A DNA stretch of 62,903 nucleotides, filler included, from Basidiobolus ranarum (Eukaryota), in NCBI GenBank assembly GCA_040143965.1. It is 56 parts of 56 records of this genome, joined end to end, with 100 filler letters (N's around TTAATTAATTAA, not from the genome) between each part and the next. Parts side by side here need not be neighbours in the genome. Positions count along the whole stretch, not along the records: positions 21,466 to 22,492 come from JASJQH010006767.1; 55 more parts are not named here. One strand, written 5' to 3'. Made by a program: the position numbers and the translations under genes. Every line of letters starts with the position of its first letter. The stretch's first letter is position 1. This document shows positions 3,397 to 57,479 of the stretch, in pieces. Under the pieces are notes generated by a model. It saw nothing but the letters and a program-made list of their open reading frames with translations, had not been told where the DNA came from and did no database searches.

Positions 3397-4427
3397 GGGG
3401 CCTCCGCTGCCAATGTTCCACCTTGGTAGCCACCCCGGGGAGCGGGAGCGGAACCTTTAGGAGGGTGGCCCCCCCAAATTTCATAAAGGAACCAACCAAA
3501 GAAACCTCCAAGTAGACTACCTACAACAGGTAAAATAAGATAAAAAAATGGAATAGCAAATTCAGCTTCAATAACACTTAAATGGTTAGGATGAGTGAAT
3601 AAACTATGACTAAATAAATGAGAACCTAAACCAATAAACATATCTTTAGTTAAGTAACCGATAAGTATACTTGCTAAAGCTAATACGATTAAAGGTAAAC
3701 TCATAACCATACTAGGCTCATGAGCATGAAGGTAATTAGTTTTAGTTCCATTTGGGAAAGTTAAGAATGTAAGCGCAATTAATCTGAAAGAATAAAAAGC
3801 AGTTATAATTGCAGTTAATGTACCTAACCAATAAGCGATACCACCTGTAAATAAATATCGTCCATAAGCTACTTCCAGGATAAAATCTTTTGAATAGAAT
3901 CCAGTTAAGAATGGTAATGCCATTAGACTTAATGAACCAATTAAGATATTAGTGTAAGTAAAAGGTAATAATTGTACTAAACCACCCATTTTTCTCATAT
4001 CTTGCTCATCATTCATGGCATGAATTACTGCACCTGCTGATAAAAATAATAAAGCCTTAAAGTAAGCATGATTTACTAAATGAAATAAACTTGTTGAATA
4101 ATTCGATAAACCTACCGACATTACTAAATAACCTAATTGACTACAAGTTGAGTAAGCAATTACTCTTTTTAGATCATTTTGAAGTAAAGCACTTGAAGCT
4201 CCAAAGAAAGCAGTTAATGCTCCTATCCAAGTTATTACTAATAGAGGAGTAGAACTATATTCTAATAGAGGTGATGCTCTTAATAATAAATATACACCTG
4301 CAGTCACCATTGTTGCTGCATGTATTAATGCTGATACTGGTGTTGGTCCCTCCATCGCATCGGGTAACCAAGTATGAAGAACTAATTGAGCTGATTTAGC
4401 CATTGCAGCTATTAGTAATAATATAGC
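3397..4427 (-). CDS. nad5: NADH dehydrogenase subunit 5, internal fragment (mtDNA contig or recent NUMT)
   Basis: Uninterrupted frame with [60 protein letters not shown] and GFYSKD. AT-rich mitochondrial codon usage. Confidence 0.97.
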
Positions 4428-11527: not shown

Positions 11528-11873
11528 TGTTAAAGTATTTGGGAGCCTGTTGGAAGTGGTTTGGAGTATTAGAGGAATTGGTGGTTTTCACTTATTGATT
11601 TATTGAATAGAAAGTTGAAATTTGTGGTTTTGTCAAGATATAAACAAACTGACGTGTAGATTATGTTATGGAAGGCCCTAAGAACATGTGTGCAAAGTTT
11701 GGGGCTTCTAGCACAAGTTTGAAAACCTATATATCTGAGAACTTCTAAGTTGGTAAAAATATTATAAGTAAATTCCAATTGAGAATAATTGATAATATTG
11801 TAGTAATTATAAGATAACCAAGTAGTAAGCTATACATGACTATATAGGTGCTTAGGCAATGCTAATTTCAACA
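11528..11873 (-). repeat. Complete 5' Copia LTR, family A (~346 bp), inserted into CACTA ORF2
   Basis: TGTTGAAATT...CTTTAACA on the minus strand. Many partial copies elsewhere in the window. Confidence 0.9.
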
Positions 11874-12339
11874 GATATCCTGCAATATTGTGCCACTCTG
11901 TATTAAGTTCTTGCCAGATATCTGCACGGTCAATACCAAACTGAATGTCAAGTTGAATGTTCTTCTTCTGAAGCCACTTTCTGCATACTTGCACTGCATT
12001 TTCCCTTCATACTTTTGAAAATACTCCTCAAGCACTTTGACTATTTCTCTATGTCCTTGTAGTGTGACACTACTGAGGGTGCTTTGTGGTATTTGTTTGG
12101 CTTTTTGCTTGCCTTTACCTTTGGGACTAATTTCAACACTTTGAAAAGTACCAGTAGAGGTTGGAGAGCCATGAGTTTTATTTGCTGATGCTTTGGCTTG
12201 TTGAGAGATGCCAGATGTTGGATAAACTTCCAAATTTAGCACTCTTCAAACTGGTGTACCTGGTTCCATGGTGAAATTAGGCTTTTTGCCAGTATATCTG
12301 ACTCTGGAATTACAGATCTTTGTAATGATGTGAAGAATT
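11874..12339 (-). mobile_element. CACTA ORF2 C-terminal-half fragment
   Basis: LNLEVYPTSG...PKGKGKQKA...VLEEYFQKYEGK. Confidence 0.85.
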
Positions 12340-13568: not shown

Positions 13569-13954
13569 AATGGTGGGCTTTGATGGAGATATTGACACAA
13601 ACTCATGTTGGGTATGAGGTAAACCTTGGGAATGAAGAACTCTATAAAAATATTCAGGAGAATATATCAAAGAGACTAGGTATTTTGAAGGTGACAAATT
13701 GGCGTTCAAGTGGTAATTGTGTAAAATTTGAGTTACGTGTTTCACACATGTGTTGATCCATAGTTCTCTGAGATTTTAGCCAATCATTCGCAACTATTTT
13801 GCGAAATCTTGAAATTTCTTTCGTGATACTGAAAAAATTGATTAAAATCAAATCTAAATTGACGATTTTATGATGGTAAGTAAACAGTCAATCCCAAATG
13901 GATTAAAATTGTGACGGTTTTCCTATGATAACAATCCTCAAATTTCTGTTAGAG
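13569..13954 (+). mobile_element. CACTA ORF2 3' end and left terminus, nested in another ORF2 copy
   Basis: Ends ...AAATTTCTGTTAGAG (terminal repeat variant) and abuts internal ORF2 sequence. Confidence 0.8.
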
Positions 13955-14597
13955 GCCCAATTACCATTTGCTTGCAAAAGCCCAGGATAAGCCACATGAA
14001 ATAAGTCAAGAACCTTCAGAGTAATGCCTGGTTTTTGGTTTTTCCACAATTGACTCAGATCCAGGTGATTTTGGGCAAGATTCCACACAGTTTCCAAAAT
14101 GTTCAACCACTCATCATCAGAGCAAGTGATGGCAGCTCTGACATTCAAAGTCTTTTGGTTTCCCGCTTTTCCTATGAGATTTCTACTTTCATGCGCCCAA
14201 GCAATTTTTGGTTGTTGTGTAGGCTTAATGGTCTGACACATATTCTGCTCTGCTAGATTGTCATGGTAACATTGATATGTAAGGTGTGGGATTGACTGAA
14301 ATCCAGTATGAGAATGGACGGAGGGAGCAGCATGTTGCTGTAGCTCAAGAACCACATTCTGAAGGTCTTGTATCATTGTTGAGTGACTCTCTAACTGTTG
14401 ACTAGTTGCTTCCAAACGCTGCATTAATTGCGATATTGTGGCGTTATTGCTTGTCATGGCCTGTATAGGAACTTCATAGTTTTGACTTATGATTTCATAC
14501 AAATCATTATGGTGTTCTGCCTGCAATTCCCTTATTGTAATAATTTTATCCAAATTTTCTACGGAGGGTTGTTCAATAGTGGGCAAGGTAGCCATTT
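13955..14597 (-). mobile_element. CACTA ORF2 central fragment (open frame)
   Basis: ORF 13903-14595, truncated by the nested insertion. Confidence 0.85.
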
Positions 14598-15209: not shown

Positions 15210-15421
15210 GAGAAGGATATTGTGGGAAAAAGAACACCTCCCACATAAGGGTGGTGTTTTAGGTAGAGCCCATCAATATCATCAGCTGATTCTGAGACAG
15301 TGTCACAGATGATTCTTCAGGGTATTTACAAGATATTTGCCGTAATGGATAGCAATTTTGATTTATTATACACTATTTCTAAGCAATTTCATTACACCAA
15401 GTTTACCATCTGAAAATTTCA
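15210..15421. promoter_or_regulatory. Putative bidirectional promoter between transposase and ORF2
   Basis: 211-212 bp spacer between divergent ATGs, conserved in four contigs (also 36739-36950, 44162-44372, 49100-49311). Promoter function is inferred. Confidence 0.6.
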
Positions 15422-15726
15422 ATGCCATTTACAAGGCATTCAAAATCTAAATCAAAATTGACTTCCAAGCCAAAGCCTGCTGGCACAAAAGGAAGAAAGT
15501 CAGCAAGAACAGAGGACTTAATTGATGAGCAGTCTAGTGATCCACTATCTACTCTAGAAGGCATTAACATGCCAGAAACTAACTCAAGTAATGATGAAGC
15601 ATTAATCAATTCACCAGATGTGTTCCTTTCCAGCAATAGTGCAAATGAAGAGATTGTAATCCCCCAGTTACATAGTAAATCAATAGTTGAGCAAAGTTTA
15701 ACCAAAACACCATCAAGACCATCAAC
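15422..15726 (+). mobile_element. CACTA ORF2 N-terminus
   Basis: MPFTRHSKSKSKLTSKPKPAG..., a basic NLS-like start shared with 36738(-), 44161(-) and 49099(-). Confidence 0.85.
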
Positions 15727-15826
15727 NNNNNNNNNNNNNNNNNNNNNNNNNNNNNNNNNNNNNNNNNNNNTTAATTAATTAANNNNNNNNNNNNNNNNNN
15801 NNNNNNNNNNNNNNNNNNNNNNNNNN

Positions 15827-18082: not shown

Positions 18083-18843
18083 AATACCTGTATAGTCATA
18101 TATAGCTTAGTACTTAGTTATCTTATAACTCACTATGATATTATCAATTATTCTCAATTGGAATTTACTTAGAATGTTTTTACCCACTTAGAAGTTCTCA
18201 GATATATAGATTTTTCAAACTTGTGCTAGAAGCCCCAAACTTTGCACATATGTTCCTGGGACTTTCCTTAGCATATTCTACATGTTAGTTTGTTTACATC
18301 TTGACAAAACTATAAATGTCATCTTTCTACTCAACAAATCAATAAGTGAAAACCACCAATTCCTCTAATTCTCCAAACCACTTCCAGCAGGATCCCAAAT
18401 ACTTTAACAAAGTAAACTGCTCAAAGACTTGGTGTTTCTCAAAGTTTACCCACCAAAATTTTCAAGGATAATCTCAGTTGTATTTCTTTAGCTAAAAATT
18501 CCAAATTTCATGCTAGAAGTAAGCATATTGACACTCAGCATCACTTTGTTAGGGAAGATATTGAGAATATGCACATCCAACCAGAGTACTGTCCAACTGT
18601 GGGCATGATTGCTGACATCCTTACCAAACCATTACCCAAGACAAAATTTGAAGAATTAAGATATAAGTCAGGATTAAGATATATGTTTATTTAGTTGAGT
18701 GGGAGTGTTGTTGGTTTTGTTTATTATATTTTTTATCTCTATCTTTATACACCTAACTGTTTCATGTAGCACATATAAGTTAGTTAACATTACTTGGGCA
18801 AATATCACTTAACTGCCAATTGGAACATATATTATATATATAT
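18083..18843 (+). mobile_element. Copia LTR-A (to 18409), RNase H end, polypurine tract, LTR-C start (18706)
   Basis: RSKHIDTQHHFVR, ADILTKPL, then GAGTGGGAG followed by TGTTG. Confidence 0.85.
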
Positions 18844-19110
18844 CTCTAACAAAAATAAAATCCATATGATCCGGATCGGATCCACCCTCCGAAATAGCAA
18901 AACCGTTAGAGAACCATCACAATATTGCTGGCTTGCATTCTGCCGGGATTTTGATGGTGAGATGGCGGTTTCTTGACAGTATCTTAATGGTATTCATATA
19001 TGTTAAAATATTGATCCTCAAATTTGGCATGCGTTATTCAATAACCAGCAATTTTTGCAAAAATATAATTTTTGAATGGCAAATTACTGGGTTTACTGCT
19101 GTAGGAATTT
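18844..19110 (+). mobile_element. CACTA right terminus inserted into the TA-rich tract of LTR-C
   Basis: CTCTAACAAAAATAAAATC..., same as 26427 and 59266. Confidence 0.8.
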
Positions 19111-21365: not shown

Positions 21366-21869
21366 NNNNNNNNNNNNNNNNNNNNNNNNNNNNNNNNNNN
21401 NNNNNNNNNTTAATTAATTAANNNNNNNNNNNNNNNNNNNNNNNNNNNNNNNNNNNNNNNNNNNNTGTGATATATGAAATAGTTAGGTGTATAAAGATAA
21501 AGATAACAAATATGATAAAGACAATAAACTTCAACACTTATACCATTCTATATGCTAGGTTGCATGTTAGATTATTTTCTTTACTTAAAACCTAATATCC
21601 TACCCAATAGAGACATGCAACTTTTCTTTAGTCAACATAAACAGTGGGCCAAAAATAGACCTGCCGGGTTGGCTTCCATTTGATTTGTTGTCTTAGTATA
21701 CAAAATGATTGAGAGATTTGATATTTTGGCTAACCACAATACCATCACGCTACATGAACTGTATTGGGAAGGTACCCCTTCCAAAAATGATCTATTAACT
21801 ATTGCAAAAGTACATATAAAGTGCATTTTCAGTAGTAGTTCACCATAAGGGAGGGGAATAGGAAGAAAT

Positions 21870-22313
21870 ATAAAGGTAAATGCTACTGGGTGGTAAAGCT
21901 TATTGATTGGCATAGGTATTTGGTGACCTTTAGACAGCCTTGTTCATATGAGTTAATATAGTCTGATGCACCTGGTAAGCCTTATTTTGACATTGAGACC
22001 TCAATCAAGGAGGAAAATCTTACAGAACAAAGGGCAAGGATGCATGCCACATTAATTATGCAACTTTAAAAAGGCACATAATGTTCAGTCTCACTGATCT
22101 GGATCTTGATGTTATATGTTTTCATGCTTGCTCTAAAGCACAGTTTTCACTACACAGCATGTTTCCCAAAATCCTCATGGACAGCATATGAAGTGGGCTA
22201 TAAGTAGGCTTAATGAAAAACTTACAGACATGTTGGCTAATAAAGTAAGTCAGTTGTTTTATATCCCTGGCAACACCAAGTATCAACAAAATTGTCCTTT
22301 AAGAGTTGTTGAT
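21870..22313 (+). pseudogene. Archaeo-eukaryotic primase (PrimPol/viral-type AEP) relic
   Basis: SYELI*SDAPGKPYFDIE (motif I DxE, 21989-21997), QFSLHSMF (motif II SxH, 22147-22155), TDMLANKVSQLFYIPGNTKYQQNCPL (motif III region). Two frameshifts. Confidence 0.7.
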
Positions 22314-22428
22314 ATATCAAATTCCTTGGCAGAATGTAAGCCACCAATATTGTGATGGTTCTCTGATGGTTTTGCAACCCAGAAGGATGGATCCAATCTG
22401 GATCATATTGATTTTATTTTTGTTGAGG
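22314..22428 (-). mobile_element. CACTA right-terminus fragment
   Basis: Homologous to 20339-20451. Confidence 0.75.
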
Positions 22429-22592
22429 TCTAAGACTGTAGGTTGTGGTATATTGATTCTTGAGCCTCTCAACATTGCTCTGATTAAAAAAANNNNNNNN
22501 NNNNNNNNNNNNNNNNNNNNNNNNNNNNNNNNNNNNTTAATTAATTAANNNNNNNNNNNNNNNNNNNNNNNNNNNNNNNNNNNNNNNNNNNN

Positions 22593-23718: not shown

Positions 23719-24068
23719 ATATGGGTATCAATATCGCCCAACAATTTTTGAGAATTGTCACCAAGATAGAGTTCATAGGCTTTGGTGAAGGAGAGAACCT
23801 TGTGCTTAATATTGAATACAGGGTTTCCGTGCATATCCATCACCGTTTTTTTCTGTGAAAAGCCACTGAAGAAACGACCATGACACCTGAATAGCACTGT
23901 ACCGTTTGAATCTTTGATTTTGAAGTCATCTCCACTCAGAGAAATCAGCTCTCGGAGGTAAAGGATTGTTGGCTGTTGCGCAATATATTGTGAGCCGATG
24001 ACTCCAACTGGTGGATTCACTAAAACTAGCGGTCGAGGTCCATAAGTATCAGAATATGAATTGCCCAT
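23719..24068 (-). CDS. LURP-one-related (Tubby C-terminal-like) protein, 5' part
   Basis: LYLRELISLSGDDFKIKDSNGTVLFRCHG...KKTVMDMHGNPVFNIKHK, a typical fungal LOR pattern. Open frame with CpG retained. Confidence 0.85.
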
Positions 24069-24522
24069 TGAAGTGATGAATGTTTAGGAAAATACTGTAG
24101 TCCTCAGCTTTTATTTGTTCTTGCTCAAAAGCTTGTACACCAACAATCCCGAATATGTCACCTAGGTGTAGCAAGAGGAAAATTTATCCGTGACAAATTT
24201 ATTAGCTAATATAGCCCAACATGCATTATTCAGGGATGTTTATTCTTCGTGCAGCATAAGAATATGTATATATATCTAAAAAAGCTCGTGAGGAATTCCA
24301 CAAATATAAACACCAAGCTCTTATAACTAGTCATCAAACTTGTATGACGCTAGCTTCTTTTCAGATACAGCTTCCTACATTCCCGTGAATGAAGATACGA
24401 GAGAAGATAGCCTCCAAGAACCGGATTGAGAGGTTACACAAAGATGGAAACTACTATTGTAGAACGTCGAAGATCTTGAGAAGAATCTTTGCGGCAAATA
24501 TTTAAGTAACTAGGTTTCTAAA

Positions 24523-24744
24523 TTAATCTTCATATGATTCATCCATCATGATGCATAAGGATACCATCAAAGCCATATCGACTCCAGGTGCAATCTCGAG
24601 ACAATAGTCATGTTTGTCAAGAAGAATTTGTCGCGCAGTAACTGGTCGAAAGACCTTAGCAAGCAGCGTTCCACCTCTCTTTGGATCTCCTCGAAAAATA
24701 AATGCTTCGTGAACACGGAAGTCTCCTTTCACTATAAACTGACA
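24523..24744 (-). CDS. LURP-one-related protein, 3' part (upstream tandem paralogue)
   Basis: VKGDF...LLAKV.R...DYCLEIAPGVDMALMVSLCIMMDE, the LOR C-terminal motif. Confidence 0.85.
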   Translation of the reverse strand, partial: CQFIVKGDFRVHEAFIFRGDPKRGGTLLAKVFRPVTARQILLDKHDYCLEIAPGVDMALMVSLCIMMDESYED

Positions 24745-31596: not shown

Positions 31597-32621
31597 CAAA
31601 GTTCAACCAAAACACCATCAAGACCATCTGCTTCTAAAACAGCTACTTTGCCCACTATTCAACAACCCTCCGTCAAAAATTTGGATAGATTTATTACAAT
31701 AAGGGAATTGCAGTCAGAACACCATAATGATTTGTATGCAATCATGAGTAAAAACTATGAAGTTGCTATACAGGCCATGACAAGCAATAACACCACAATA
31801 TTGCAATTAATGCAGCGTATGGAAGCAACTAGTCAACAGTTAGGGAGTAACTCAACAATGATACAAGACCTTTAGAATGCTGTTCTTGAGCTACAACAAC
31901 ATGCTGCTCCCTCCATCCATTCTCATATGGGATTTCAGTCATTCCCATGCCATATGAACAACAACATGGCAATCTAGAAAGAGCTGAATATATGTTGGAA
32001 GAAATCTCATGGGAAAACTAGCAAACCAAAAGATTCTAAATGACAGCGCTGCAATCACTTGCTCTGATGATGAGTGATTTAACATTTTGGAAACTGTGCG
32101 GGATCTTGCCCAAAATCACCTGGATTTGATACAATTGTGGAAAAACCAAAAACCAGGCATTACTGTGAAGGTTCTTGACTTATTTCATGTGGCTTAACCT
32201 GGGTTTTTGCAAGCAAATGCCAATTATGCTAGTATAGGCATATTCATGAAACATCTCAAAAATGTACACAATTATCAACTTTGAAAAGAAAGAAATGAAG
32301 CTAAAGAAGTACTGAAGGAGCAGGAAGTTAGTAAACCCAAGGCAAAAGCAATGGAGCCAGTGAGGTTAGGCTCTACTGGCCCAGTTACCAAATTCTTCAC
32401 ACCATTACAAAGATCTGCAATTCCAGAGTCAGATATACTGGCAAAAAAGCTTAATTTCACCATGGAACCAGGTTCACCAGTTGGAAGAGTGCTAAGTTTG
32501 GAAGTTTATCCAACACATGGCACCTCTCAACAAGCCAAAACACCAGCAAATAAAACTCACAGCTCTCCAACCTCAACTGGTACTTTTCAAAGTGTTGAAA
32601 TTAGTCCCACAGGTAAAGGCA
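31597..32621 (+). mobile_element. CACTA ORF2 fragment
   Basis: Homologous to the other ORF2 copies. Confidence 0.85.
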
Positions 32622-34969
32622 NNNNNNNNNNNNNNNNNNNNNNNNNNNNNNNNNNNNNNNNNNNNTTAATTAATTAANNNNNNNNNNNNNNNNNNNNNNN
32701 NNNNNNNNNNNNNNNNNNNNNTTTCCAGCTGGTTGCGTCATCAATCAACCAATCTAGCTTCCTTGAGATATACACCAGGTCTACTTGAAAGTTATCTGAC
32801 ACTCACACATTAAATACTGATATGGATTCGAGCACTATCACAAACCATACATAAATGCAAACCATAGAATAAGCGATATGACGGTCTTGGTAGGCACAGG
32901 TTTCCCTAGCCCCATTTAGTCACAAAAATCTACTAATTAGGCAAATCGATTCAGCTGTTTGATAGTAGTGAGTACGTTGATTGTATTCTGAATTATGATA
33001 AATTACCTAATAGGGTAATCGCATTTTATTCTTAATCATGATCTACTACTTAATAAGGCAATCATATTCCAATCACATTTCATTAAAAGCTTGTTTACAA
33101 GCGGAAGTAAACTCACCTATTTTATCGATAGGAGCTAGCTAAATGAATATAGGCCACGGATAATAAATGGATATGGGCCACGGCCAAGGCGCAAGATGCA
33201 TTAGTTCTAGACCGTAATTAGGAAACAAGGAATGATAAACCAAGTTCATCAGAACAAGTCAGTCATTGTTTGATCACTTTTTGCCTCTTTTGGAAAATAT
33301 ACGAAATTTGTGTTCACCCGATGGATGCTTCGATTTACAGAAGGACAAAGCGGCTGCGGGTGCATTTTTCCCGACTTAGTATGTTTAGCCGATACAAAAG
33401 AATTTTTGCTTCACAAACATGGTTTCCGTGGCTAAGTGCGTGGGAGGGAGGGTGCTAGAATATTACATTAGCAAACAACTGCTAGTATTGCTAAATTGAG
33501 TGAGGTGATAGAATATTCCATTTTCAGGAATAACTCCGCATACTCCTTGGAGTCATTAGGATCTTGTTGCTACTTCAATTGCATCGCTAGGAGAAAGCTG
33601 AATTATTCTACTTGTTCTCTACAACCGCTAAGACTTGACCAGTGTATCCATAGTGCCAGAAGGTGGTTGCTTCGCTAGAAGGAAGCAGAAAGATGACAAA
33701 TACTTGGCTAGAAAGAGGTGAACAGATAACAAAGATTTGGCCAGTNNNNNNNNNNNNNNNNNNNNNNNNNNNNNNNNNNNNNNNNNNNNTTAATTAATTA
33801 ANNNNNNNNNNNNNNNNNNNNNNNNNNNNNNNNNNNNNNNNNNNNTTATGCAAAGTTGATCTAAGCATTTATTCAAGTACTCATGTATGTTAATAAAATT
33901 GGAATAGAGCTTAACTATCTAGCTCAAGTAGATACAAACCAAGTGTCATCATCATTGAGTTAATCAATAACCCCTGGTATATTTCATCCAACATGACACT
34001 TAAGTTTATGCGATTATGTGTAGAGCTTGGGGCCTCTTGAAAAAAATCGAAGAATCAAGTAGACGCAGTAATATTCAATTCCATATAAAGCAGAAATATT
34101 AATTCAATTCATGATATTGTGTAGTGACAATATTATTCCGGTTGCGACGAGTATTCAAAAGTATACATATGGCTATACCAAATGAAACCTAAAGAGTGGG
34201 AAATAAAGTTGTCACTTCTACCTGAGCTGAAAATTAATTTAACTTCAATGTCAATTACAAGTGAGGTAAGTACCGAAGTTAAGATGGTGAGATATGAAAT
34301 GATAAATTGAACTCTTCAGTTGATTACATTTCCCACTTGAGTCGTTGATAGTTCAAAGATAGACCATACGAAACACTGAGATTTTAGCATCTACTGACAA
34401 TCTTTCAGCCAACGGTTTAATTTGGTTTATCTAATGTTTATCACTCTTTCTAGTAGTTAAGGCGGGAAATGTATAAAATGTGCATCCCCGTAGTGTTCAA
34501 CGTTCATGTGGAATCCAGAATTTATAAAGCGAGTAAATCTCTCGATCAATCCAAGTTCTGAAAGTAAGAGTTCTTCCTCTCTTGTTGGGGATTCTACAGT
34601 AGTAAATTCGCAGATAAAATCAAGTCGCAAAGTATATTATGGAGATAGGTAATGCGCTGGTGCTTACTTCCGTTGTTTGGCAAAGCACTAAGTTTTTTTT
34701 AAATAGATACATTCCTCGAAGGGATTTCAATTTAGTTCATAGGTATGAATTGCTGAAAACAAAGCCGGAATCTAGCACTGAAGTTGTTGAATCTCCTGGG
34801 TGCTTGCAGTTTCGTTCCATGATCTTTTTCTTGCAGGAAACTAATATTACAACATGCATTTAACTTCAANNNNNNNNNNNNNNNNNNNNNNNNNNNNNNN
34901 NNNNNNNNNNNNNTTAATTAATTAANNNNNNNNNNNNNNNNNNNNNNNNNNNNNNNNNNNNNNNNNNNN

Positions 34970-35993: not shown

Positions 35994-36093
35994 NNNNNNN
36001 NNNNNNNNNNNNNNNNNNNNNNNNNNNNNNNNNNNNNTTAATTAATTAANNNNNNNNNNNNNNNNNNNNNNNNNNNNNNNNNNNNNNNNNNNN

Positions 36094-36738
36094 ATGGTGA
36101 CATTCATATGTATGGTGTGGGATTGATTGAAATCCCATATGAGAATGGACAGAGGAAGCAGCATGTTGCTGTAGCTTGAGTACAGAATTCTGAAGGTCTT
36201 GTATCATTGTTGAGTGAATCTCTAACAGTTGACTAGTTACATCCAAACGCTGCATTAATTGCAATATTGCAGCATTATTGCTTGTCATGGCCTGTATAGC
36301 AACTTCATAGTTTTTACTTATGATTGTATACAAATCATTACGGTGTTCTGCCTGCAATTCCCTTATTGTAATAATTCTATCCAAATTTTCTATGGAGGGT
36401 AGTTCAATAGTGGGCAATGTAGCCAATTTGGAAGTTGATGGCCTTGACGGTGTTTTGTTTGAGTTTTGCTCAACTATTGATTTACTACATAGTTGGAGGA
36501 TTATAATCTCTTCACTTGCACTATTGCTGGAAAGGAACACATCTGGTAAATTGATTAATGCTTCATCATTACTTGAGTTGGTTTCCGGCATGTTAATGTC
36601 TTCCAAAGTGGATAGTGGATTGCTAGACTGTTCATCAATTAAGTCCACTGCTTTTGCTGGTTTTTTTTGTTTTGTGCCAGCAGGCTTTGGCTTGGAAGCC
36701 AATTTTAACTTAGATTTTGAACGCTTTTTGAATGGCAT
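36094..36738 (-). mobile_element. CACTA ORF2 N-terminal 215 codons (open frame)
   Basis: Basic N-terminus, Ser/acidic linker, and heptad-like segment ILQLMQRL...IQDLQNSVLKLQQ. Confidence 0.85.
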
Positions 36739-36950
36739 TGAAATTTTCAGATGTTAAACTTGGTGTAATGAAATTGCTTAGAAACAGCTTATAATAAACC
36801 AAAATTGCCATCCATTACCGGAAATATCTTGTAAATCCCCTGATGACTCATCTGTGACACCATCTCAGAATCAGCTGATGATATTGATGGGCTATACCTA
36901 AAATACCACCCTTATGTGGGAGGTGTTCTTTATTCTACAATATCCTTCTC

Positions 36951-39464: not shown

Positions 39465-40487
39465 CCAAGCCCACCATTGTATTAACATTGCTGAATCAAC
39501 ATTCTCCCAGCTATCTGGTGGATACCCTGCAATATTGTGCCACTCTGTATTAGGTTCTTCCCAGATATCTGCATGGTCAACACCAGACTAAATGTCAAGT
39601 TGAATGTGCTTCTTTTGAAGCCACTTTCTGCATACTTGCACTGCATTTTTCCATTCAAACTTTTGAAAATACTCCTCAAGCACTATGACTATTTTTGTAT
39701 GTCCTTGTAGCATAATACTACTGAGGGTGCTTAGTGGTGTGTCTGTGGCTTTTTGCTTGCCTTTACCTTTAGGGCTAACTTCAACATTGTGAAAAGTACC
39801 AGTAGAGGTTGGAGAGCTGTGAGTTTTATTTGCTGATGTTTTGGCTTGTTGAGAGATGCCAGGTGTTGGATAAACTTCCAAATTTAGCACTCTTCCAAAT
39901 GTTGTACCCGGTTCCATGGTTAAATTAAGCTTTTTTGTTGGTATATCTGACTCTGGAAATGCAGATTTTTGCAATGGTGTGAAGAATTTGGTTAGTGGGA
40001 CAGCAGAGCCTAAGCTTACTGCCTCCTTAGCTTTTCCCTTGAGTTTACTAACTTCCTGCTCCTTCAGTACCTCTTTAGCTGCTTTTCTTTCTTTTCCAAG
40101 TCAATAATTGCATACATTTTTGAGATGATTCATGAATAGGCCTATACTAGCCCAATTGCCATTTGCTTGCAAAAGCCCAGGATAAGACACATGAAATAAG
40201 TCAAGAACCTTCAGAGTAATGCCCGTTTTTTGGTTTTTCCTTGAATGGCTCCAATCCAGGTGATTTTGGGCAAGATTCCACTCAGTTTCCAAAATGTTAA
40301 ACCACTCATTATCAGAGCAAGTGATGGCAGCTCTGACATTAAGAGTCTTTTGATTTGCTGGTTTTCCTATAAGATTTCTACTTTCATGTGCCCAAGCAAT
40401 GTTGGGTTGTTGTGTAGGCCTAATGGTCCAACACATATTCTGCTCTGCTAGATTGGCATAGTGATGTTTATATGTATGGTGTGGCAT
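39465..40487 (-). mobile_element. CACTA ORF2 central to C-terminal fragment
   Basis: EWFNILET...NWASIGLFMNHLKN...CRKWLQKKHIQLDI. Confidence 0.85.
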
Positions 40488-40859
40488 NNNNNNNNNNNNN
40501 NNNNNNNNNNNNNNNNNNNNNNNNNNNNNNNTTAATTAATTAANNNNNNNNNNNNNNNNNNNNNNNNNNNNNNNNNNNNNNNNNNNNTAATTCTCACATA
40601 ATTCACATGTATATAAAATATATGTTCCGATTTGCAGCTAAGTGATATTTGACTAAATAATGTTGACTAACTAATATGTGATATATGAAATAGTTAGGTG
40701 TATAGGGATAACATATATGATAAAGACAATAAACTTCAACAAAAACATGCTTGCAGATATACTAACAAAGCCACTCAAAACTTCAAGCTTTGAGAAGTTA
40801 AGAGCAGGAATATGCATTAGTGAATATATGCACAATGCTGAATAAGAATTATAGGAAGG

Positions 40860-41176
40860 TGTTGGATAATTAATCTTTATTCAATATCATAGTTAACTTT
40901 AGTTATAATACATAAATCAGAAACAGAAAACAACATATCTATAGCCCCCATATTCAAAATAGGAATATCCCTATATCTATATAACAAGTATGTCTTATTA
41001 CCCCCACTTATCTATTATATTTTATTACACAAACTCCTGAATATCTCAGACAATTGATTTACTTTTCTACGATATGAGTCTCCATATACTCTTAAGAATA
41101 AAGCAACTAAAACACACAATCATAAGTTGCTTCTAATACTCAAAGTCTACCCCCATTATGTCAAGATTCTCCAACA
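40860..41176 (+). repeat. Complete 3' Copia LTR, family D (~317 bp)
   Basis: TGTTGGA...TCCAACA, preceded by LADILTKPL RNase H end and purine tract ATAGGAAGG. Confidence 0.85.
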
Positions 41177-41552
41177 ATGTTTTGAGTATTACAATCAATA
41201 AAGTTTACTTCTTTGTCTTGAACTTTCTCTTGTATAAAATGATGTTTTATGTCAATATATTTCATCCTTGAGTGATGCTCAGGATTTTTGGTGATCTGAA
41301 TACAACCAATATTATCTTGATATATTGGGGTAGGATTAACTTGCTTGTATCCTAGTTCCTTGAGAAGAATCCTTAGCCATATAGCTTCTTGAACAGCTAT
41401 AAAGCTTGCCATATATTCTGCTTCTGTGGTTGATAATGTGACAGTTTGTTGTTTCTTGCTAATCCAGCTTATTGGCCCACCTGCTAGCTTGAACACATAT
41501 CCAGTTCTGGATTTACAGTCTTCTGTATGGTCAGCCCAGTCTGCATCAGGTA
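41177..41552 (-). mobile_element. Copia RNase H fragment
   Basis: [29 protein letters not shown] and [10 protein letters not shown]. Confidence 0.95.
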
Positions 41553-41710
41553 TAAGAAAGGAAAATTTGGGCATTCGTGATTTTATTATTTTTGTAACTC
41601 GTAATTCTAGNNNNNNNNNNNNNNNNNNNNNNNNNNNNNNNNNNNNNNNNNNNNTTAATTAATTAANNNNNNNNNNNNNNNNNNNNNNNNNNNNNNNNNN
41701 NNNNNNNNNN

Positions 41711-43856: not shown

Positions 43857-43956
43857 NNNNNNNNNNNNNNNNNNNNNNNNNNNNNNNNNNNNNNNNNNNN
43901 TTAATTAATTAANNNNNNNNNNNNNNNNNNNNNNNNNNNNNNNNNNNNNNNNNNNN

Positions 43957-44978
43957 AGGAACACATCTGGTAAATTGATTAATGCTTCATCATCACTTGA
44001 GTTAGTTTCCAGCAGGTTAATGCCTTCCAGAGTGGACAGTGGATTACTAGACTGCTCATCAATTAAGTCCTCTGTTCTTGCTAGTATTGTTGCTTTTGTG
44101 CCAGCAGGCTTTGGCTTGGAAGCCAATTTGGATTTATATTTTGGACACTTTTGAATGGCATTGATATTTTCAGATGGTAAACTTGGTGTAATGAAGTTGC
44201 TTAGAAACAGCTTATAATAAATCAAAATTGCCATCCATTACCGGAAATATTTTGTAAATCCCCTGATGACTCACCTGTGACACTATCTCAGAATCAGTTG
44301 ATGATTTTGATGGGCTATATGTAAAATACCTTCCTTACATGGAAGGTGTTCTTTTTCCACAGTATCCTTCTCATGCCACAACACAAACAATTAAAGAAGC
44401 CCTGCTATTATTGTCTCAATTTCTTGTGCTATGAAAGCCAGAGGTTTCATAGAAAATGTAATCACAAGCACAGTCACTGTACAAAGCCATCAGCTGCACA
44501 GAGCCTGGTGTATAACAACAGTAATAAGTGCACTGAATCAACTTTAGTTTTCCCATTGCATCCACCAACTGTACATTGCCTCAAAGTTTTTGTAACATTG
44601 CCCAAAGTCAAGATACCATGGAGTTACCACAGTTATATGACCAGAATGATGTAGTTAGATATGCAACTTTGGTCAAACCAGTAAGTCCAGACAACTTTGA
44701 GGACTTGCTGCTAGATGTTGACCTTGGTTATTCCAGTACTGATGGTAGTATATCAGAAGATGAAGAAGACAATGGTTTTGTTACAGACTCTTTGTTATTG
44801 GCAAACATTAGTCCACTCATAACACTTACTGTAAAGGAAGCATCTTTGATTATTGAGGAGTGGAGAGTTCAATCCAATCTTAGCAACCAGGTGTTTATTG
44901 GTTTTCTTACACTTTTACCACAGTTGACTGGCAACTGTTGCTTGCCACAGACCTGGTACAAGTGGAAATCACTTGTCA
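43957..44978. mobile_element. CACTA centre: ORF2 start (44161, -) and transposase N-terminus (44373, +)
   Basis: Divergent ATGs 211 bp apart. MPQHKQLKKPCYYC...EWRVQSNLSNQVF..LL...LPQTW. Confidence 0.85.
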
Positions 44979-48444: not shown

Positions 48445-49465
48445 GCTAGATTGTCATGGTTACATTCATATGTATGGTGTGGGATTGATTGAAATCCCAT
48501 ATGAGAATGGACAGAGGGAGCAGCATGTTGCTATAGCTTGAGTACAGCATTCTGAAGATCTTGTATTATTGTTGAGTGACTCTCTAACTGTTGACTAGTT
48601 GCTTCCAAATGCTGCATTAATTGTAATATTGCGACATTATTGCTTTTCATGGCCTGTATAGCAACTTCATAGTTTCTACTTATGATTGCATACAAATCAT
48701 TGCTGTGTTCTGCCTGCAATTCCTTTATTGTACTAATTCTATCCAAATTTTCTATGGAGGGTTGTTCAATAGTGGGCAAAGAAGCCATTTTGGAAGTTGA
48801 TGGTCTTGACAGTGTTTTGGTTGAACTTTGCTCAACTATTGATTTACTACGTAACTGGGGGATTACAATCTCTGCACTTGCACTACTGCTGGAAAGGAAC
48901 ACATCTGGTAAGTTGATTAATGCTTCATCATTACTTGAGTTAGTTTCCGGCATGTTAATGCCTTCCAAAGTGGATAGTGGATCACTAGACTGCTCATCAA
49001 TTAAGTCCTCTGTTATTGCTGGTTTTTTTCCTTTTGTGCCACCAGGCTTTGGCTTGGAAGCCAATGTTGACTTAGATTTTGAATGCTTTTGAATGGCATT
49101 GAGATTTTCAGATGGTAAACCTGATGTAATGAAATTGCTTACAAACAGCTTATAATAAACCAATATTGTCATCCATTACCGGAAATATCTTGTATATCCC
49201 CTGATGACTCATCTGTGTCACTGTCTCAGAATCCACTGATGATATTGATGGGCTGTTCCTAAAATACCACCCATATGTGAGAGGTGTTCTTTTTTCTACA
49301 ATATCCTTCTCATGCCGCAACACAAACATTAAGAGAAGCCCTGCTATTATTGTTGCAAATTCTTGTGCTATGAGAGCCAAAAGCTTCATAGAAAAAATAC
49401 TCACAAGCACAGTCACTGTACAAAGCCACCAGCTGCACAAAACCTGGTGTATAACAACACTAATA
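48445..49465. mobile_element. CACTA centre: ORF2 N-terminus (49099, -) and transposase start (49312, +)
   Basis: Same head-to-head layout with a 212-bp spacer. Confidence 0.85.
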
Positions 49466-49565: not shown

Positions 49566-50586
49566 TCTGGCATTTATCCAATGTTAAAATTAGAATTGCC
49601 TAAGCACCTATATGGTCAAGTATAGCTTTGTATTTAGTTACCCTACACTTCATTAAGGTATTACCCATTATTCTCCATTGGAATTTATTTTGGATAGCCT
49701 GACAAACTATATATATTTTAATGTTCCAAAGTGAGCAAACCTAACTTTCAACAGTCACACTAATGCAATGAGAATAATGGTGTTCCCAAGCTCCTATATC
49801 CAATATAATATACCTAGCTATCCTAAATTGGCATACATAATGTATAGAAGTTGAGTGGATTTTCAGATGTTTGAAAAGTACTGTGGAGTGGTACTCAGAG
49901 TACACATATTCTGGGTCAAATTTTAATCTGATGGGATATTCAGATACAAGTTGAGGAAGGGATATTGAAGATAGTACTGAAATAAGCATTGCCTAAACAC
50001 CTATGTAGTCATATATAGCTTTGTACTTAGTTATCTTATATTGAACTAAGATATTATCCATTATTCTTGATTGGAATTCACTCAGAATATTGACACCAAC
50101 TTAGAAGTTCTCAGATATACAGATTTTTCAAACTTGTGCTAGAAACCCCAAAATTTGCACACATGTTTTGGAGACCCTCCTAAATACACTCAAGATGTCA
50201 CTTTGCTTACATCTTGACAAATCTATAAATGTCAATTTTCAGCTCAATCCATCCACAAGTGAATAACCACCAATTTCTCTAATTTTCCAAACCATTTCCT
50301 GTTGAAGTTTATTGTCTTTATCATATTTATGATCTCTATCTTTATACACCTAACTATTTCATATATCACATACAAGTTAGTTAACATTACTTAGTCAAAT
50401 ATCACTTAGCTGAAAATCGGAACATATAGTATATATATATATGAATAATGTGAGAATTAGCAATTCCATATTGGCAATTTCAAACTCGTCCAAATTGCCC
50501 CAAAAATAGCTCATTTTACTCCCACAGATGTTCTGAACACAACCCCAGTGTTAGTTTTCTGTATTTCCACCAAAAAGTATAAATGC
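49566..50586 (+). repeat. Nested Copia LTR-A and LTR-C fragments with a short RT/RNase H remnant
   Basis: LTR-A-like starts at ~49582 and ~49977, LTR-C starts at ~50300; LMGYSD remnant at ~49930. Confidence 0.75.
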
Positions 50587-51807
50587 NNNNNNNNNNNNNN
50601 NNNNNNNNNNNNNNNNNNNNNNNNNNNNNNTTAATTAATTAANNNNNNNNNNNNNNNNNNNNNNNNNNNNNNNNNNNNNNNNNNNNGTATTTCTCATACC
50701 CGTTGTTTCTAGACGCTGTTTGAAGCATTTTCCATTTATTTCTTGTCAGTAGTCTTTAGCTCTTTATAGGCTATCCTTTAGGTGTTTTCCAAATTCGTCA
50801 TTTCTTGGCACCATACCTTTCAGCATTAGTTAGTAGTGTTACGCACTTCGTAGACTTTACTTGAAGTATTATAATTACGCCTAACCCTTTCCCACATGTT
50901 GATATCGGAACTGATGTATTCAAACCTGAGTTCCTTGTCAACTTGTTTATGTACGGTCAAAGATCATGCTACTTCTTTTGAATTCTAACCTAACTAGAAA
51001 TACTATTTGATGATGCGGTTTTAATCAAGTTTGTAGCCAATCATGTGGGAAGTAACAAAGTCATATTTTAGACAAAGTACGGAAAGACCAAATCTTATCA
51101 CTGATTTGGCGCATTCATCACTTGCACCGATGTACAAATGAGTTCCAGATTAGCGTCATTAACAAAGCAAAATTCTGGGTTAATTACGGTTGGACTGATC
51201 GCACACACCGATTGCTCAACATCTACTACTCATTCCCAGGATACTTGTTAATACTGTGCTTGACAGGGTCCACTTTATAGGCCCATAATTTCTGGAATAA
51301 GTCTCGGCAATTGTATTGATTTGGAGATATCGCATTAGATTGAAGTTGAAGTTTGTTTACTCTTTCTTTGTTTGGATGAGATATTCATGAAGAGTTCAAC
51401 TGTTGATTTGAATAAAAGTTAAAATAGCTATGACAATCAATTAAGATGAAGTGCCAATAACTTTGTTTCGAACAAAGTTAAACCAGAACCAATAGGGCGA
51501 AAGAGGAATCGTTAAGTCTTTGGCACTTTGTAGTCTTTTTTTTGATGTTTCCCATACCCGTCGTTTCATAGCACCATACCATTTGTCATTTTTCAATAGT
51601 CTTTAGCACTTCGTAAACTCAACCTTAAACATTTTCCTTACCCATCGTTTACTGCTTGAAGTATTTCCCATACTCATTGTTTCTAATGTTTCCCATGCCC
51701 ATTGTTTNNNNNNNNNNNNNNNNNNNNNNNNNNNNNNNNNNNNNNNNNNNNTTAATTAATTAANNNNNNNNNNNNNNNNNNNNNNNNNNNNNNNNNNNNN
51801 NNNNNNN

Positions 51808-52928: not shown

Positions 52929-53830
52929 GAAATTTGAGGATTGATATCATAGGAAAACCATCACAATTTTATTCCATTTGGGATTGATTTTTTTTTACTG
53001 TCATAAAATTGTCAAATTAGATTTGATTTTAATCATTTTTTTCAGTTTCAGGAGTGAAATTTCAAGATCTTGCAAAAGAGTGGTCCATGATTGGCTACAA
53101 TCTCAGAGAACTACAGATCAACACATGTGCAAAAAACATAACTCAAATTTTGCACCAATACCACTTGTACACTAATTTGTCACCTTCAAAATCCCTGGTC
53201 TCTTAGATATATTCTCCCAAATATTTTTATAGAGTTCTTCATACCCAAGGCTTAGCTCATACCCAACACAAGTGTGTATCAATATCTCCATCAAAGCCTA
53301 CCGTTGTAATAATATTGCTGAATCAACATTCTTCCAGCTATCTGGTGGATACCCTGCAATATTGTGCCACTCTTTATTAAGTTCTTCCCAGATATCTCCA
53401 CAGTCAACACCAGACTGAATGACAAGTTGAATGTTCTTCTTCTGAAGCAACTTTGTGCTACTTGCACTGCATTTTTCCCTTCATACTTTTGAAAATACTC
53501 CTCAAGCACTTTGACTATTTTTGTACATCCTTGTAGTGTGACACTACTGATGGTTCTTTGTGGTGTTTGTGCGGCTTTTTGCTTGCCTTTACCTTTGGGG
53601 CTAATTTCAACCCTTTGAAAAGTACCAGTTGAGGTTAGAGAGCTGTGAGTTTTATTTGCTGGTGTCTTGGCTTGTTGAGAGGTGCCAGGTGTTGGATAAA
53701 CTTCTAAATTTAGCAATCTTGCAAATGGTGTTCCTGGTTCCATTGTAAATTTAGCTTTTTTGCCTCTATATCTGACTCTGGAATTGCAGATCTTTGTAAT
53801 GCTACAAAGAATTTAATAAGTGGGACAGTA
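52929..53830 (-). mobile_element. CACTA left subterminal region contiguous with the ORF2 3' half
   Basis: Links the GAAATTTGAGGATTG left end to the ORF2 C-terminus. Confidence 0.85.
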
Positions 53831-56959: not shown

Positions 56960-57307
56960 TTAAACCTTATTTTTCTCTTCCAGGTTGCCACGTCCTCCAA
57001 ACATATGATCAATTTGTTCCAAACTCTTTCCTTTAGTCTCAGGTACAAAGAAGTACACAAAGATGAACATAAGGACACCACATGCTCCAAAGATCATATA
57101 CAGTCCCCAGCTAATAGAGTTGATCAAGGGTGGAACAACAAGAGCAATGATGAAGTTGAAGGCCCAGTTAGAAGCAGTGGTAATACTCATGCACTTGGCA
57201 CGGACACGAGTAGAGTAGATTTCTGATGGGTAAATCCAACCAATGGGTCCCCAGGTACAGGCGAAGAATGCAACAAACAAGTAGATCAAAGCCATCGTGG
57301 CATAGCC
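56960..57307 (-). CDS. MFS sugar porter, 3' part
   Basis: TWGPIGWIYPSEI...R.K...ASNWAFNF...VPETKGKSLEQID signature. Confidence 0.95.
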   Translation of the reverse strand, partial: GYATMALIYLFVAFFACTWGPIGWIYPSEIYSTRVRAKCMSITTASNWAFNFIIALVVPPLINSISWGLYMIFGACGVLMFIFVYFFVPETKGKSLEQIDHMFGGRGNLEEKNKV

Positions 57308-57479
57308 ANNNNNNNNNNNNNNNNNNNNNNNNNNNNNNNNNNNNNNNNNNNNTTAATTAATTAANNNNNNNNNNNNNNNNNNNNNNNNNNNNNNNNNNNN
57401 NNNNNNNNTATCATATATGTTGTCTCTATCTTTGAACACCTAACTATTTCATATATCAAATACAGGTTAATTCAGATTC

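What the first reader, a model, noticed from the sequence alone, without database searches (positions are those of the whole stretch)
21620..22313. Decayed AEP primase of PrimPol/large-DNA-virus type, absent from the ORF track
Seen: across stops and two frameshifts the + strand reads GKCYWVV...SYELI*SDAPGKPYFDIE...ACSKAQFSLHSMFP...TDMLANKVSQLFYIPGNTKYQQNCPL. Known: YE.I....P.K.YFD.E, S.H and D..Y...(Q/R).FR....K are motifs I-III of the PrimPol/NCLDV-herpesvirus AEP clade. It shows no obvious intron, is compact between motifs, CpG-depleted and flanked by transposon fragments. Inference: a relic of an endogenous giant virus or self-replicating DNA element rather than the host PrimPol gene.
Basis: partly seen in the sequence, partly recalled or inferred. 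Interest (0 to 1): 0.7.

Follow-up and report, generated by a model that had tools for sequence, protein, structure and literature searches.

The report
Decayed viral-type primase–helicase gene fragment
A broken, rearranged 800-base leftover of a gene that once fused a PrimPol-like DNA primase to a herpes-UL9-like origin-binding helicase, a design known from giant viruses and here found as a rare family in fungi; it is a dead molecular fossil, not the host's own PrimPol.

Summary
Window 21839-22331 (+) reads, across one in-frame stop, a 1-base deletion and a ~31-codon deletion, as the N-terminal AEP primase domain. Motifs I (D-I-E) and II (S-L-H) are intact; motif III is damaged.

An exhaustive search of 1.84 billion proteins with 76 residues of it gave one hit (E 4e-12). 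From that hit a family of 13 proteins emerged. The intact ones have ~1100 aa. Four of 13 are named, all from fungi. The architecture is PrimPol-like AEP, then a Zn ribbon, then a UL9-like SF2 helicase with a UL9-like C-terminal domain. The family profile hits human PrimPol (3.4e-9) and HSV UL9 (2.8e-13). The best viral fold matches are giant-virus origin-binding proteins.

The relic is 71-78% identical to one member, P0002. Unexpectedly, 21528-21815 is the C-terminal tail of the same protein (residues 936-1028), lying 23 b upstream of the AEP head (residues 31-225). This is a tail-to-head junction.

The window is not contiguous. It is 56 unlinked ~1-kb contigs joined by stop-linkers, so only the repeats inside contig 21466-22492 are true flanks. 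No linked viral genes could be sought.

Verdict: a fossil of a virus- or mobile-element-type primase–OBP gene. It is a new member of a known kind and of moderate interest.

The parts
21366..21465 (.). artificial linker (N44-TTAATTAATTAA-N44); left end of the contig that holds the finding
   Evidence: 55 such linkers split the window into 56 pieces of 1032-1018 b, sorted by length
21466..21538 (.). repeat fragment A, true left flank inside the contig
   Evidence: 84-96% identical to stretches in 4 other pieces (49566-50586, 40588-41610, 18083-19110, 57409-58428)
21528..21815 (+). fragment of the C-terminal (UL9-like C-domain) tail of the primase-OBP protein, P0002 residues 936-1028, with in-frame TGA at 21681-21683
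   Evidence: 75% id, E 2e-46; profile positions 932-1032; this tail is conserved in 8 of 13 family members; it lies inside the model range aligned to HSV UL9
21816..21838 (+). tail-to-head junction: about 23 b between P0002-like residue ~1028 and residue 31; residues 1029-1113 and 1-30 are missing
21839..22066 (+). AEP domain, first part (P0002 31-106); in-frame TAG at 21959-21961; motif I D-I-E at 21989-21997 intact
   Evidence: 77% id; for the motif I alignment to human PrimPol
22064..22068 (+). 1-base deletion (frameshift 1)
   Evidence: and sequence: the codons for P0002 L106 and L107 share base 22066
22066..22185 (+). AEP domain, middle part (P0002 107-146); motif II S-L-H at 22147-22155 intact
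   Evidence: 78% id
22186..22187 (+). site of a ~31-codon deletion with change of frame (P0002 147-177 absent)
22188..22331 (+). AEP domain, motif III part (P0002 178-225). The Asp at 22227-22229 is kept, but the family-invariant V-Y and R of motif III are replaced (A-N; Y at 22260-22262)
   Evidence: V-Y and R present in 7 of 7 members that have this region
22316..22424 (.). repeat fragment B, which cuts off the gene after residue ~225
   Evidence: 82-85% identical to stretches in 4 other pieces; one search shows it is the end of a longer repeat in 3 of them
22432..22492 (.). repeat fragment C (part of a copia-like element's internal region)
   Evidence: 79-92% identical to 3 other pieces, two of which carry copia-type gag ORFs
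22493..22592 (.). artificial linker; right end of the contig

Best explanation
Window 21528-22331 is a dead, rearranged fragment of a gene for a single large replication protein.

In intact relatives (~1100 aa) this protein joins, in order: a PrimPol-like AEP primase/polymerase, a CxxC...CxxC zinc ribbon, a UL9-like SF2 helicase, and a UL9-like C-terminal domain.

Inferred mechanism for intact proteins (not shown here): the C-terminal part recognises an origin, the helicase opens it, and the AEP with its zinc ribbon lays the first primer. One protein would thus start replication of a viral or other selfish DNA genome, as proposed for Mimivirus R8-type and herpes UL9/UL52 functions.

The copy here entered the nuclear genome of a repeat-rich, CpG-methylating host, probably a fungus. 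It was silenced like the surrounding transposons and decayed by CpG deamination, small deletions and transposon insertion.

What is left is the tail of one gene unit abutting the head of the next, or of the same circular or concatemeric unit. It cannot make a protein and has no function.
For: Shown for the relic:
- Colinear matches to P0002 at 71-78% identity for both parts.
- The only hit among 1.84e9 proteins is a family member.

Shown for the family of 13 proteins:
- The order AEP, Zn ribbon, helicase, tail is shared.
- The AEP triad is intact in 6 of the 7 members that have the region; Walker A is intact in 8 of the 11 that have it.
- The profile hits HSV UL9 at 2.8e-13 and human PrimPol at 3.4e-9, with motifs I-III aligned.
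- Pfam Herpes_ori_bp is found in 6 of 11 members, AEP_C962R in 1 of 11 and PPL4 in 1 of 11.
- The language-model neighbours of P0002 1-300 are AEP_C962R clusters of giant viruses and chordate PrimPol, scores 0.96-0.97.

Fold evidence, on the P0002 model (mean pLDDT 66.6):
- The best solved match is HSV-1 OBP. Foldseek gives E 1.3e-16, the next family 4e-10. VIA gives Z 18.3, rmsd 11.3, 512 aligned, model 343-1071; the next chain has Z 13.8.
- The best viral matches are ~1000-1200-aa giant-virus 'replication origin-binding' or SF2 helicase proteins (Bodo saltans virus, Catovirus, Satyrvirus, Marseillevirus), E 1.9e-28 to 1e-22, ahead of the herpes OBPs.

Architecture in print: Mimivirus R8 and an Ectocarpus viral insert have AEP fused to a UL9-like helicase (passages of PMC2373305).

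Decay:
- 2 in-frame stops, 1 frameshift, 1 out-of-frame deletion, and 3 invariant motif III residues lost.
- Of 17 aligned P0002 arginines, 10 are kept (all AGR). The other 7 became Q, Q, H, C, C, stop and Y, and no CGN codon is left.
- CpG o/e is 0.06 and TpG/CpA 1.33, like the repeat pieces (0-0.15) and unlike the genic pieces (0.4-0.77).

Selfish rather than host origin (inferred):
- The family is very rare: 13 clusters in 5.8e9.
- The 4 named members are scattered over Mucoromycota, Zoopagomycota and Lipomyces.
- Several are degraded: P0007 has lost motif I, motif II, the Zn ribbon and Walker A/B; P0011 lacks the AEP and Walker A.
Against: - No viral hallmark gene, terminal repeat or integrase is linked. 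The contig is 1 kb, the other 55 pieces show nothing of the family, and the relatives' contigs could not be read.
- Scans of IMG/VR and JGI metagenome contigs found no relative.
- Similarity to giant-virus proteins is by predicted fold only (11-15% identity). The model's AEP part has modest confidence (block pLDDT 48-79) and was not searched as a domain of its own.
- The relic's own fragments give no direct Pfam or PDB hit.
- The named relatives lie on large chromosomal contigs (27-976 kb), which also fits a host gene.
- The host is not identified. Its ND5 piece scores best against what I recall to be plant chains.
- The tail-to-head junction could be an assembly chimera.
Confidence: 0.7

Rival explanations
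1. It is a pseudogene of a cellular (host) gene family: a fungal PrimPol that carries its own helicase and works in damage tolerance or repriming. On this view it duplicated and decayed like any other gene, with no virus or mobile element involved.
For: - A PrimPol review states that PrimPol orthologues occur in some fungi and are lost in others (passage of PMC5295015).
- One family member is named 'DNA-directed primase/polymerase protein' by UniRef.
- The named members sit on 27-976 kb chromosomal contigs.
- 6 of 7 AEP domains keep the catalytic triad.
Against: - There are only 13 clusters in 5.8e9, and one hit in 1.84e9 representatives.
- The named hosts are scattered and several copies are degraded.
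- The domain order is that of viral replication initiators.
- The relic has the CpG decay of silenced repeats, not of the genic pieces.
- A tail-to-head junction is not expected for a single-copy host gene.
Confidence: 0.2
2. It is a processed retrocopy or simple duplicate of the host's canonical PrimPol gene.
For: The stretch is intronless and PrimPol-like. Motif I-II spacing is like that of human PrimPol.
Against: - The closest proteins (46-77% id) all carry the UL9-like helicase.
- The contig itself holds the UL9-like C-terminal tail.
- Direct searches of the fragments against PDB did not find PrimPol.
- No poly(A) trace was noted at the 3' boundary, which is a repeat insertion.
Confidence: 0.03
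3. The gene relic is real, but the tail-to-head order is an artefact: a chimeric short-read contig that joined two separate fragments of one or two dispersed copies.
For: - The piece is a ~1-kb unplaced contig bounded by repeats, in an assembly cut into thousands of such pieces.
- The two parts are in different frames, with an abrupt 23-b junction.
Against: - Both parts are equally diverged from P0002 (75% against 71-78%) and in the same orientation.
- No repeat shared with other pieces lies at the junction (matches to other pieces stop at 21538 and resume at 22316).
- Giant viruses often carry paralogous OBP genes side by side. This is my inference from consecutive accession numbers of two Catovirus hits; it was not checked.
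Confidence: 0.2

Closest known systems
Mimivirus R8-type 'origin-binding protein' of giant viruses (AEP + Zn domain + UL9-like helicase), and the Ectocarpus genomic OBP described with it
   Same: - The domain order matches that stated in PMC2373305 (passages).
- The size is similar, ~1000-1200 aa.
- Giant-virus OBP/SF2-helicase proteins are the best matches to the P0002 model in the viral fold library, with ~1100-1300 alignment columns.
- It occurs as decayed inserts in eukaryotic genomes.
   Different: Identity in the fold alignments is 11-15%.
- The 4 named members of this family are from fungi, and the family has its own conserved C-tail.
- No accompanying giant-virus genes are known for any member.
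Human PrimPol (CCDC111), PDB 5l2x/7jk1
   Same: The AEP catalytic core aligns. The family profile hits at E 3.4e-9, with motif I (Y-E-V-I..L-Y-F-D-L-E region), motif II (F-S-x-H) and motif III (D-x-x-V-Y..F-R..K) aligned. PrimPol is the only AEP in the PDB hit at E<=1.
   Different: - PrimPol has no helicase and no UL9-like C-domain.
- Its motif II-III spacer is about twice as long.
- It is a conserved cellular gene with introns (recalled).
Herpes simplex virus UL9 origin-binding protein (PDB 9hgi/9hgj)
   Same: The SF2 helicase and the following C-terminal region match. Profile E is 2.8e-13. Foldseek gives 1.3e-16. VIA gives Z 18.3 over model 343-1071 against chain 27-748, 4.5 Z units above the next helicase.
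   Different: - UL9 has no primase domain; herpes primase UL52 is a separate protein.
- Sequence similarity is significant only around helicase motifs I-II (Pfam profile positions ~50-204 of 820).
ASFV C962R and poxvirus D5-type primase-helicases
   Same: An N-terminal AEP is fused to a replicative helicase. There is a weak Pfam AEP_C962R match in 1 of 11 members at 4e-5 (P0001 reached only 0.011, above that scan's 0.01 cut-off).
   Different: Those use an SF3 (D5) helicase, not an SF2 UL9-like one (recalled).
Phage/plasmid AEP-SF2 helicase fusions (All3500 family; PHROG 4913 'replication')
   Same: The same logic applies: a primase fused to a UL9-like SF2 helicase on mobile elements (passage of PMC5862659). 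The helicase part hits phrog_4913 at 2e-24 and phrog_3712 'replication origin binding' at 2.4e-8.
   Different: The AEP there belongs to the PrimPol-PV1 supergroup of bacteria and archaea, according to that paper. Here the AEP matches eukaryotic PrimPol.

Membership tests
AEP superfamily, PrimPol / NCLDV-herpesvirus kind | Motif I: two acidic residues (DxE/D) after a hydrophobic strand | tested here: met
   The relic has D-I-E at 21989-21997. This aligns with PrimPol D-L-E through the family profile. It is intact in 6 of 7 family members with the region.
AEP superfamily, PrimPol / NCLDV-herpesvirus kind | Motif II: small-x-His | tested here: met
   The relic has S-L-H at 22147-22155. This aligns with PrimPol S-R-H. 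It is intact in 6 of 7 members.
AEP superfamily, PrimPol / NCLDV-herpesvirus kind | Motif III: hD followed by V-Y....F-R..K | tested here: inconclusive
   The Asp is kept at 22227-29, but V-Y has become A-N and R has become Y in the relic. The family has it in 7 of 7 members. It was once met and is now degraded.
AEP superfamily, PrimPol / NCLDV-herpesvirus kind | Significant profile similarity to a solved or curated member | tested here: met
   The family profile against human PrimPol gives E 3.4e-9. AEP_C962R reaches 4e-5 in 1 of 11 members. The relic's fragments alone give no hit; they are tied to the family by 71-78% identity.
AEP superfamily, PrimPol / NCLDV-herpesvirus kind | AEP fold (alpha-beta module plus RRM-like module) | tested here: inconclusive
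   The whole-protein model has pLDDT 48-79 in residues 1-200.
UL9-like origin-binding SF2 helicase | Walker A/B and SF2 motifs with best similarity to UL9 | tested here: met
   This holds for the family: Herpes_ori_bp is above the gathering score in 6 of 11 members, the PDB profile gives 2.8e-13, and UL9 is the top fold match. The relic has lost this part entirely.
UL9-like origin-binding SF2 helicase | C-terminal domain after the helicase, as in UL9 | tested here: inconclusive
   The VIA alignment to 9hgi_A runs to model residue 1071 and chain residue 748. A range gives only the first and last aligned residue, and rmsd is 11.3. The relic keeps residues 936-1028 of this region. DNA binding is not testable here.
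Mimivirus R8-type AEP-Zn-UL9 fusion (giant-virus OBP) | Domain order AEP, Zn-binding element, UL9-like helicase in one polypeptide | tested here: met
   See alignment A2/A3 and the motif table. The architecture of R8 is taken from passages of PMC2373305.
Mimivirus R8-type AEP-Zn-UL9 fusion (giant-virus OBP) | Sequence or phylogenetic affinity to giant-virus members; linkage to giant-virus core genes | not testable with these tools
   No R8 or other giant-virus sequence could be fetched. The viral and metagenome contig scans were negative. No host genome is held. There is only fold-level similarity.
Canonical cellular PrimPol (host gene or its retrocopy) | AEP followed by a UL52-like zinc finger, no helicase; closest relatives are cellular PrimPols | tested here: not met
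   The closest relatives all carry the UL9-like part, and the contig itself carries its tail.
Functional gene | Open reading frame with a start and all domains | tested here: not met
   There are two in-frame stops, one frameshift and one out-of-frame deletion. Residues 1-30, 147-177, 226-935 and 1029-1113 are absent.

The most novel reading that the evidence does not exclude
The 13-protein family marks an undescribed lineage of DNA replicons of fungi: small viruses or plasmid-like episomes whose only replication protein is an R8-type primase-OBP fusion, and which replicate as circles or head-to-tail concatemers.

On this reading the tail-to-head junction at 21816-21838 is a fossil of that form. 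The short contigs (2.2-6.4 kb) that carry 9 of the 13 proteins would be near-complete units rather than assembly fragments.
Probability: 0.1. Interest if true: 0.75.

Novelty: new member of a known kind. Interest (0 to 1): 0.4.

Why it matters
DNA viruses of fungi are almost unknown. Published fungal traces were found with PolB as the probe, and listed D5 primase-helicase, SNF2 helicase and RNA polymerase genes beside it (passages of PMC7017919; PMC13533422). An R8-type primase-OBP gene is not among those markers.

A rare but coherent family of such genes, with intact and decayed copies in several fungal lineages, offers a second, independent probe for past DNA-virus or episome infections of fungi. 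It also gives a natural set of single-chain 'origin binder + helicase + primase' enzymes for biochemistry.

My literature searches found no description of this fusion in fungi. Supplements were closed and Iyer et al. 2005 could not be read, so it may be listed there.

A practical point: windows built from concatenated contigs create false neighbourhoods.

Tried and rejected
- Pfam on the five raw fragments gave nothing relevant.
- PDB phmmer with three fragments gave only chance-level hits.
- Rfam on the whole window gave 0 matches.
- Earlier-findings look-ups gave nothing.
- IMG/VR scans with P0001 and with alignment A2, and the two JGI metagenome scans, found no relatives.
- A Walker-A-based DNA pattern scan of IMG/VR gave 6 loci. 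All encode ~420-540-aa ORFs that match the family only around Walker A (E 5e-5 to 8e-4), so none counts as a relative.
- The first structure job, on a 2-sequence alignment, was useless (pLDDT 29.7).
- In the second model the AEP domain could not be searched alone. PrimPol or other AEP folds are absent from the lists, which the helicase fills; this says nothing about the fold.
- Host identification failed. The atlas look-up of the ND5 piece gave only the family. The PDB ranking put what I recall to be plant chains first (about 400 bits), above chains I recall as Chaetomium (354) and Yarrowia (311). The table gives no organisms, so the host is left open.
- A phylogeny against cellular PrimPol and giant-virus primases was not built, because no such sequences could be obtained.

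Full report
**1. The window.**
The 62,903 bases are not one stretch of a chromosome. They are 56 pieces of 1032 down to 1018 b, sorted by length and joined by 55 identical 100-b linkers (N44, a six-frame stop dodecamer, N44). This is a pseudomolecule of unplaced small contigs. The finding lies wholly in piece 21466-22492 (1027 b). Anything beyond those limits is not physically linked to it.

**2. The observation.**
The quoted reading is present. I took window 21839-22069 by reference, with its single TAG read as X, and ran an exhaustive phmmer against 1,835,955,588 representative proteins. It returned exactly one protein, P0001 (959 aa; E 4.2e-12; 46% identity over query 5-75).

P0001 carries Pfam Herpes_ori_bp (6.6e-19, above the gathering score) and a weak AEP_C962R match (0.011, below the gathering score). 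Word-based searches from P0001 and from its relative P0002 then gave 13 proteins in all:
- 2 of 375 candidates;
- 11 of 6273 candidates;
- 2 further, shorter ones of 2838 candidates.

P0002 (1113 aa) is much the closest to the window. Its matches are:
- residues 31-108 = window 21839-22072 (77%);
- residues 107-146 = window 22066-22185 (78%);
- residues 178-225 = window 22188-22331 (71%).

The joint E-value is 2e-60. Only this one of the 56 pieces is hit at E below 0.01; the next best hit, to another piece, has E 0.054. A profile of the 13 proteins, searched with all filters off against every open stretch of all 56 pieces, found six segments. All lie in 21528-22352 (E 5e-9 to 0.04), and the next best elsewhere has E 3.2. 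Chance is excluded.

**3.
It matches P0002 residues 936-1028 (75%, E 2e-46), the C-terminal tail of the same protein. That tail is a real part of the family: 8 of the 13 members have it (P0001's aligned segment is divergent).

So the relic reads tail (936-1028), then about 23 b, then head (31-225), on the same strand but in different frames. Residues 1-30, 226-935 and 1029-1113 are absent.

**4. Lesions (with the sequence).**
- TGA at 21681-83.
- TAG at 21959-61.
- One base lost within 22064-68. The TAA at 22067-69 stands only in the frame that is left there.
- A ~31-codon deletion with frame change at 22186-87 (P0002 147-177). This is why motifs II and III look so close.
- In motif III, the family-invariant V-Y and R (7 of 7 members) are replaced.

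Motif I (D-I-E, 21989-97) and motif II (S-L-H, 22147-55) are intact.

Of the 17 arginines of P0002 in the aligned parts, 10 are kept, all as AGR codons. The other 7 became Q, Q, H, C, C, stop and Y, and no CGN codon is left. That is the pattern of CpG deamination.

The contig has CpG o/e 0.06 with a TpG/CpA excess of 1.33. This is like the repeat-derived pieces (0-0.15) and unlike the genic pieces (0.4-0.77).

**5. True flanks.**
Inside the contig the relic is bounded by three fragments of dispersed repeats:
- 21466-21538, with copies in 4 other pieces;
- 22316-22424, with copies in 4 others;
- 22432-22492, with copies in 3 others, two of them copia-like.

The central 21539-22315 has no copy in the other 55 pieces.

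**6. The family.**
Alignments A2 and A3 show one architecture:
- an AEP core;
- a CxxC...CxxC zinc ribbon;
- an SF2 helicase with Walker A, D-E-A-T-F and Q-A-G-H-S motifs;
- a conserved helical tail.

The profile hits HSV UL9 (2.8e-13) and human PrimPol (3.4e-9, two stretches covering motifs I-II and motif III). No other AEP is hit at E<=1.

The language-model neighbours of P0002 1-300 are giant-virus AEP_C962R clusters and chordate PrimPol.

A model of P0002 built on the 13-sequence alignment has mean pLDDT 66.6. The helicase scores 80-93 and the AEP 48-79. Its best solved match is the HSV-1 origin-binding protein:
- Foldseek E 1.3e-16, against 4e-10 for the next family;
- VIA Z 18.3, rmsd 11.3, 512 aligned, model 343-1071 against chain 27-748, with the next chain at Z 13.8.

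So the similarity to UL9 appears to run past the helicase into the C-terminal region that the relic partly keeps.

In the viral fold library the best matches are giant-virus proteins of about the same length, named origin-binding protein or SF2 helicase (Bodo saltans virus, Catovirus, Satyrvirus, Dasosvirus, Indivirus, Marseillevirus). Their E-values run from 1.9e-28 to ~1e-22, ahead of the herpes OBPs at ~1e-19.

The fusion of an AEP with a UL9-like helicase, with a Zn domain, is in print for Mimivirus R8. It is also in print, without the Zn domain, for a viral insert in Ectocarpus (passages of PMC2373305, citing Iyer et al. 2005, which I could not read).

**7. Host or parasite?**
Four of the 13 proteins are named: Parasitella parasitica, Thamnocephalis sphaerospora, Lipomyces mesembrius and L. 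starkeyi. The other nine come from unnamed assemblies.

The family is very rare for a cellular gene, and its named hosts are scattered. It includes degraded copies: P0007 has lost motif I, motif II, the Zn ribbon and Walker A/B, and P0011 lacks the AEP and Walker A.

Together with the viral architecture and the repeat-like decay of this copy, I read it as a gene of a DNA virus or other selfish replicon that has been endogenised repeatedly.

This is inference. No linked hallmark gene is known for any member. The named copies lie on large chromosomal contigs. A review notes that PrimPol orthologues exist in some fungi (passage of PMC5295015). I give the host-gene rival 0.2.

**8. The host.**
It is unidentified. 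For a fungus:
- the named relatives are fungal;
- TE-restricted CpG decay;
- a sugar transporter, LOR and tnp2-type transposase pieces.

Against, or neutral: the ND5 piece scores best against PDB chains that I recall to be plant ones.

No bench work in the host is proposed.

**9. Verdict.**

The giant-virus origin is plausible but unproven. The transposon 'neighbours' beyond the contig are an artefact. It is a new member of a known kind.

Noticed in passing
whole window; linkers at 1033-1132, 2165-2264, ... 61786-61885: The window is a chain of 56 unlinked ~1-kb contigs sorted by length and joined by N44-TTAATTAATTAA-N44 spacers. Any finding in this window that relies on neighbourhood across a spacer is unsafe.
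   Followed up: yes
3399-4427 (-): One open 343-codon frame for mitochondrial NADH dehydrogenase subunit 5. It aligns contiguously with residues ~223-533 of solved ND5 chains. All 5 Trp codons are TGG, GC is 0.35 and CpG o/e is 0.44. The best PDB scores are to chains I recall as plant ND5 (~400 bits), above chains I recall as fungal (354, 311).
   Followed up: partly
all pieces: CpG o/e is bimodal. It is 0-0.15 with TpG/CpA excess in repeat-derived pieces and 0.4-0.77 in genic pieces (e.g. 23719-24744, 32722-33745, 50687-51707). This fits methylation aimed at repeats.
   Followed up: partly
56963-57307 (-); 23721-24083 (-); 54051-54464 (+): Three likely host or transposon gene fragments: the C-terminal end of a Sugar_tr transporter (2.4e-34), a LURP-one-related domain (2.8e-15), and a weak tnp2-type transposase (8e-5, below the gathering score).
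   Followed up: partly
60841-61783 (+): An SNF2-family helicase N-terminal region split by a stop at ~61213-61219, with an altered DEAH-box region. It is a probable pseudogene. Fungal giant-virus inserts are reported to carry D6/D11-like SNF2 helicases (PMC7017919 passage), but no link to the finding can be drawn across contigs.
   Followed up: no
13906-14595 (-), 36046-36753 (-), 48531-49175 (-), 43905-44237 (-), 15383-15778 (+); and 39591-40100 (-), 11868-12245 (-), 32285-32677 (+), 53291-53812 (-): Two repeated ORF families of unknown kind, each present in 4-5 pieces. The two tested representatives (13906-14595, 39591-40100) have no Pfam match. They are probably parts of one abundant uncharacterised transposon.
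   Followed up: partly
P0007 (Thamnocephalis sphaerospora) and P0011 (Lipomyces mesembrius), alignment A3: P0007 is full-length, but every catalytic motif (AEP I and II, Zn ribbon, Walker A and B) is replaced. P0011 lacks the AEP and Walker A. These are either annotated pseudogenes or members exapted for a non-enzymatic role.
   Followed up: partly
fold search of the P0002 model, viral library: Several giant viruses contribute two or three different hits each (Bodo saltans virus 3, Catovirus 4, two of them with consecutive accession numbers). This suggests paralogous, perhaps adjacent, OBP-type genes in one genome, which bears on the tail-to-head order of the relic.
   Followed up: no
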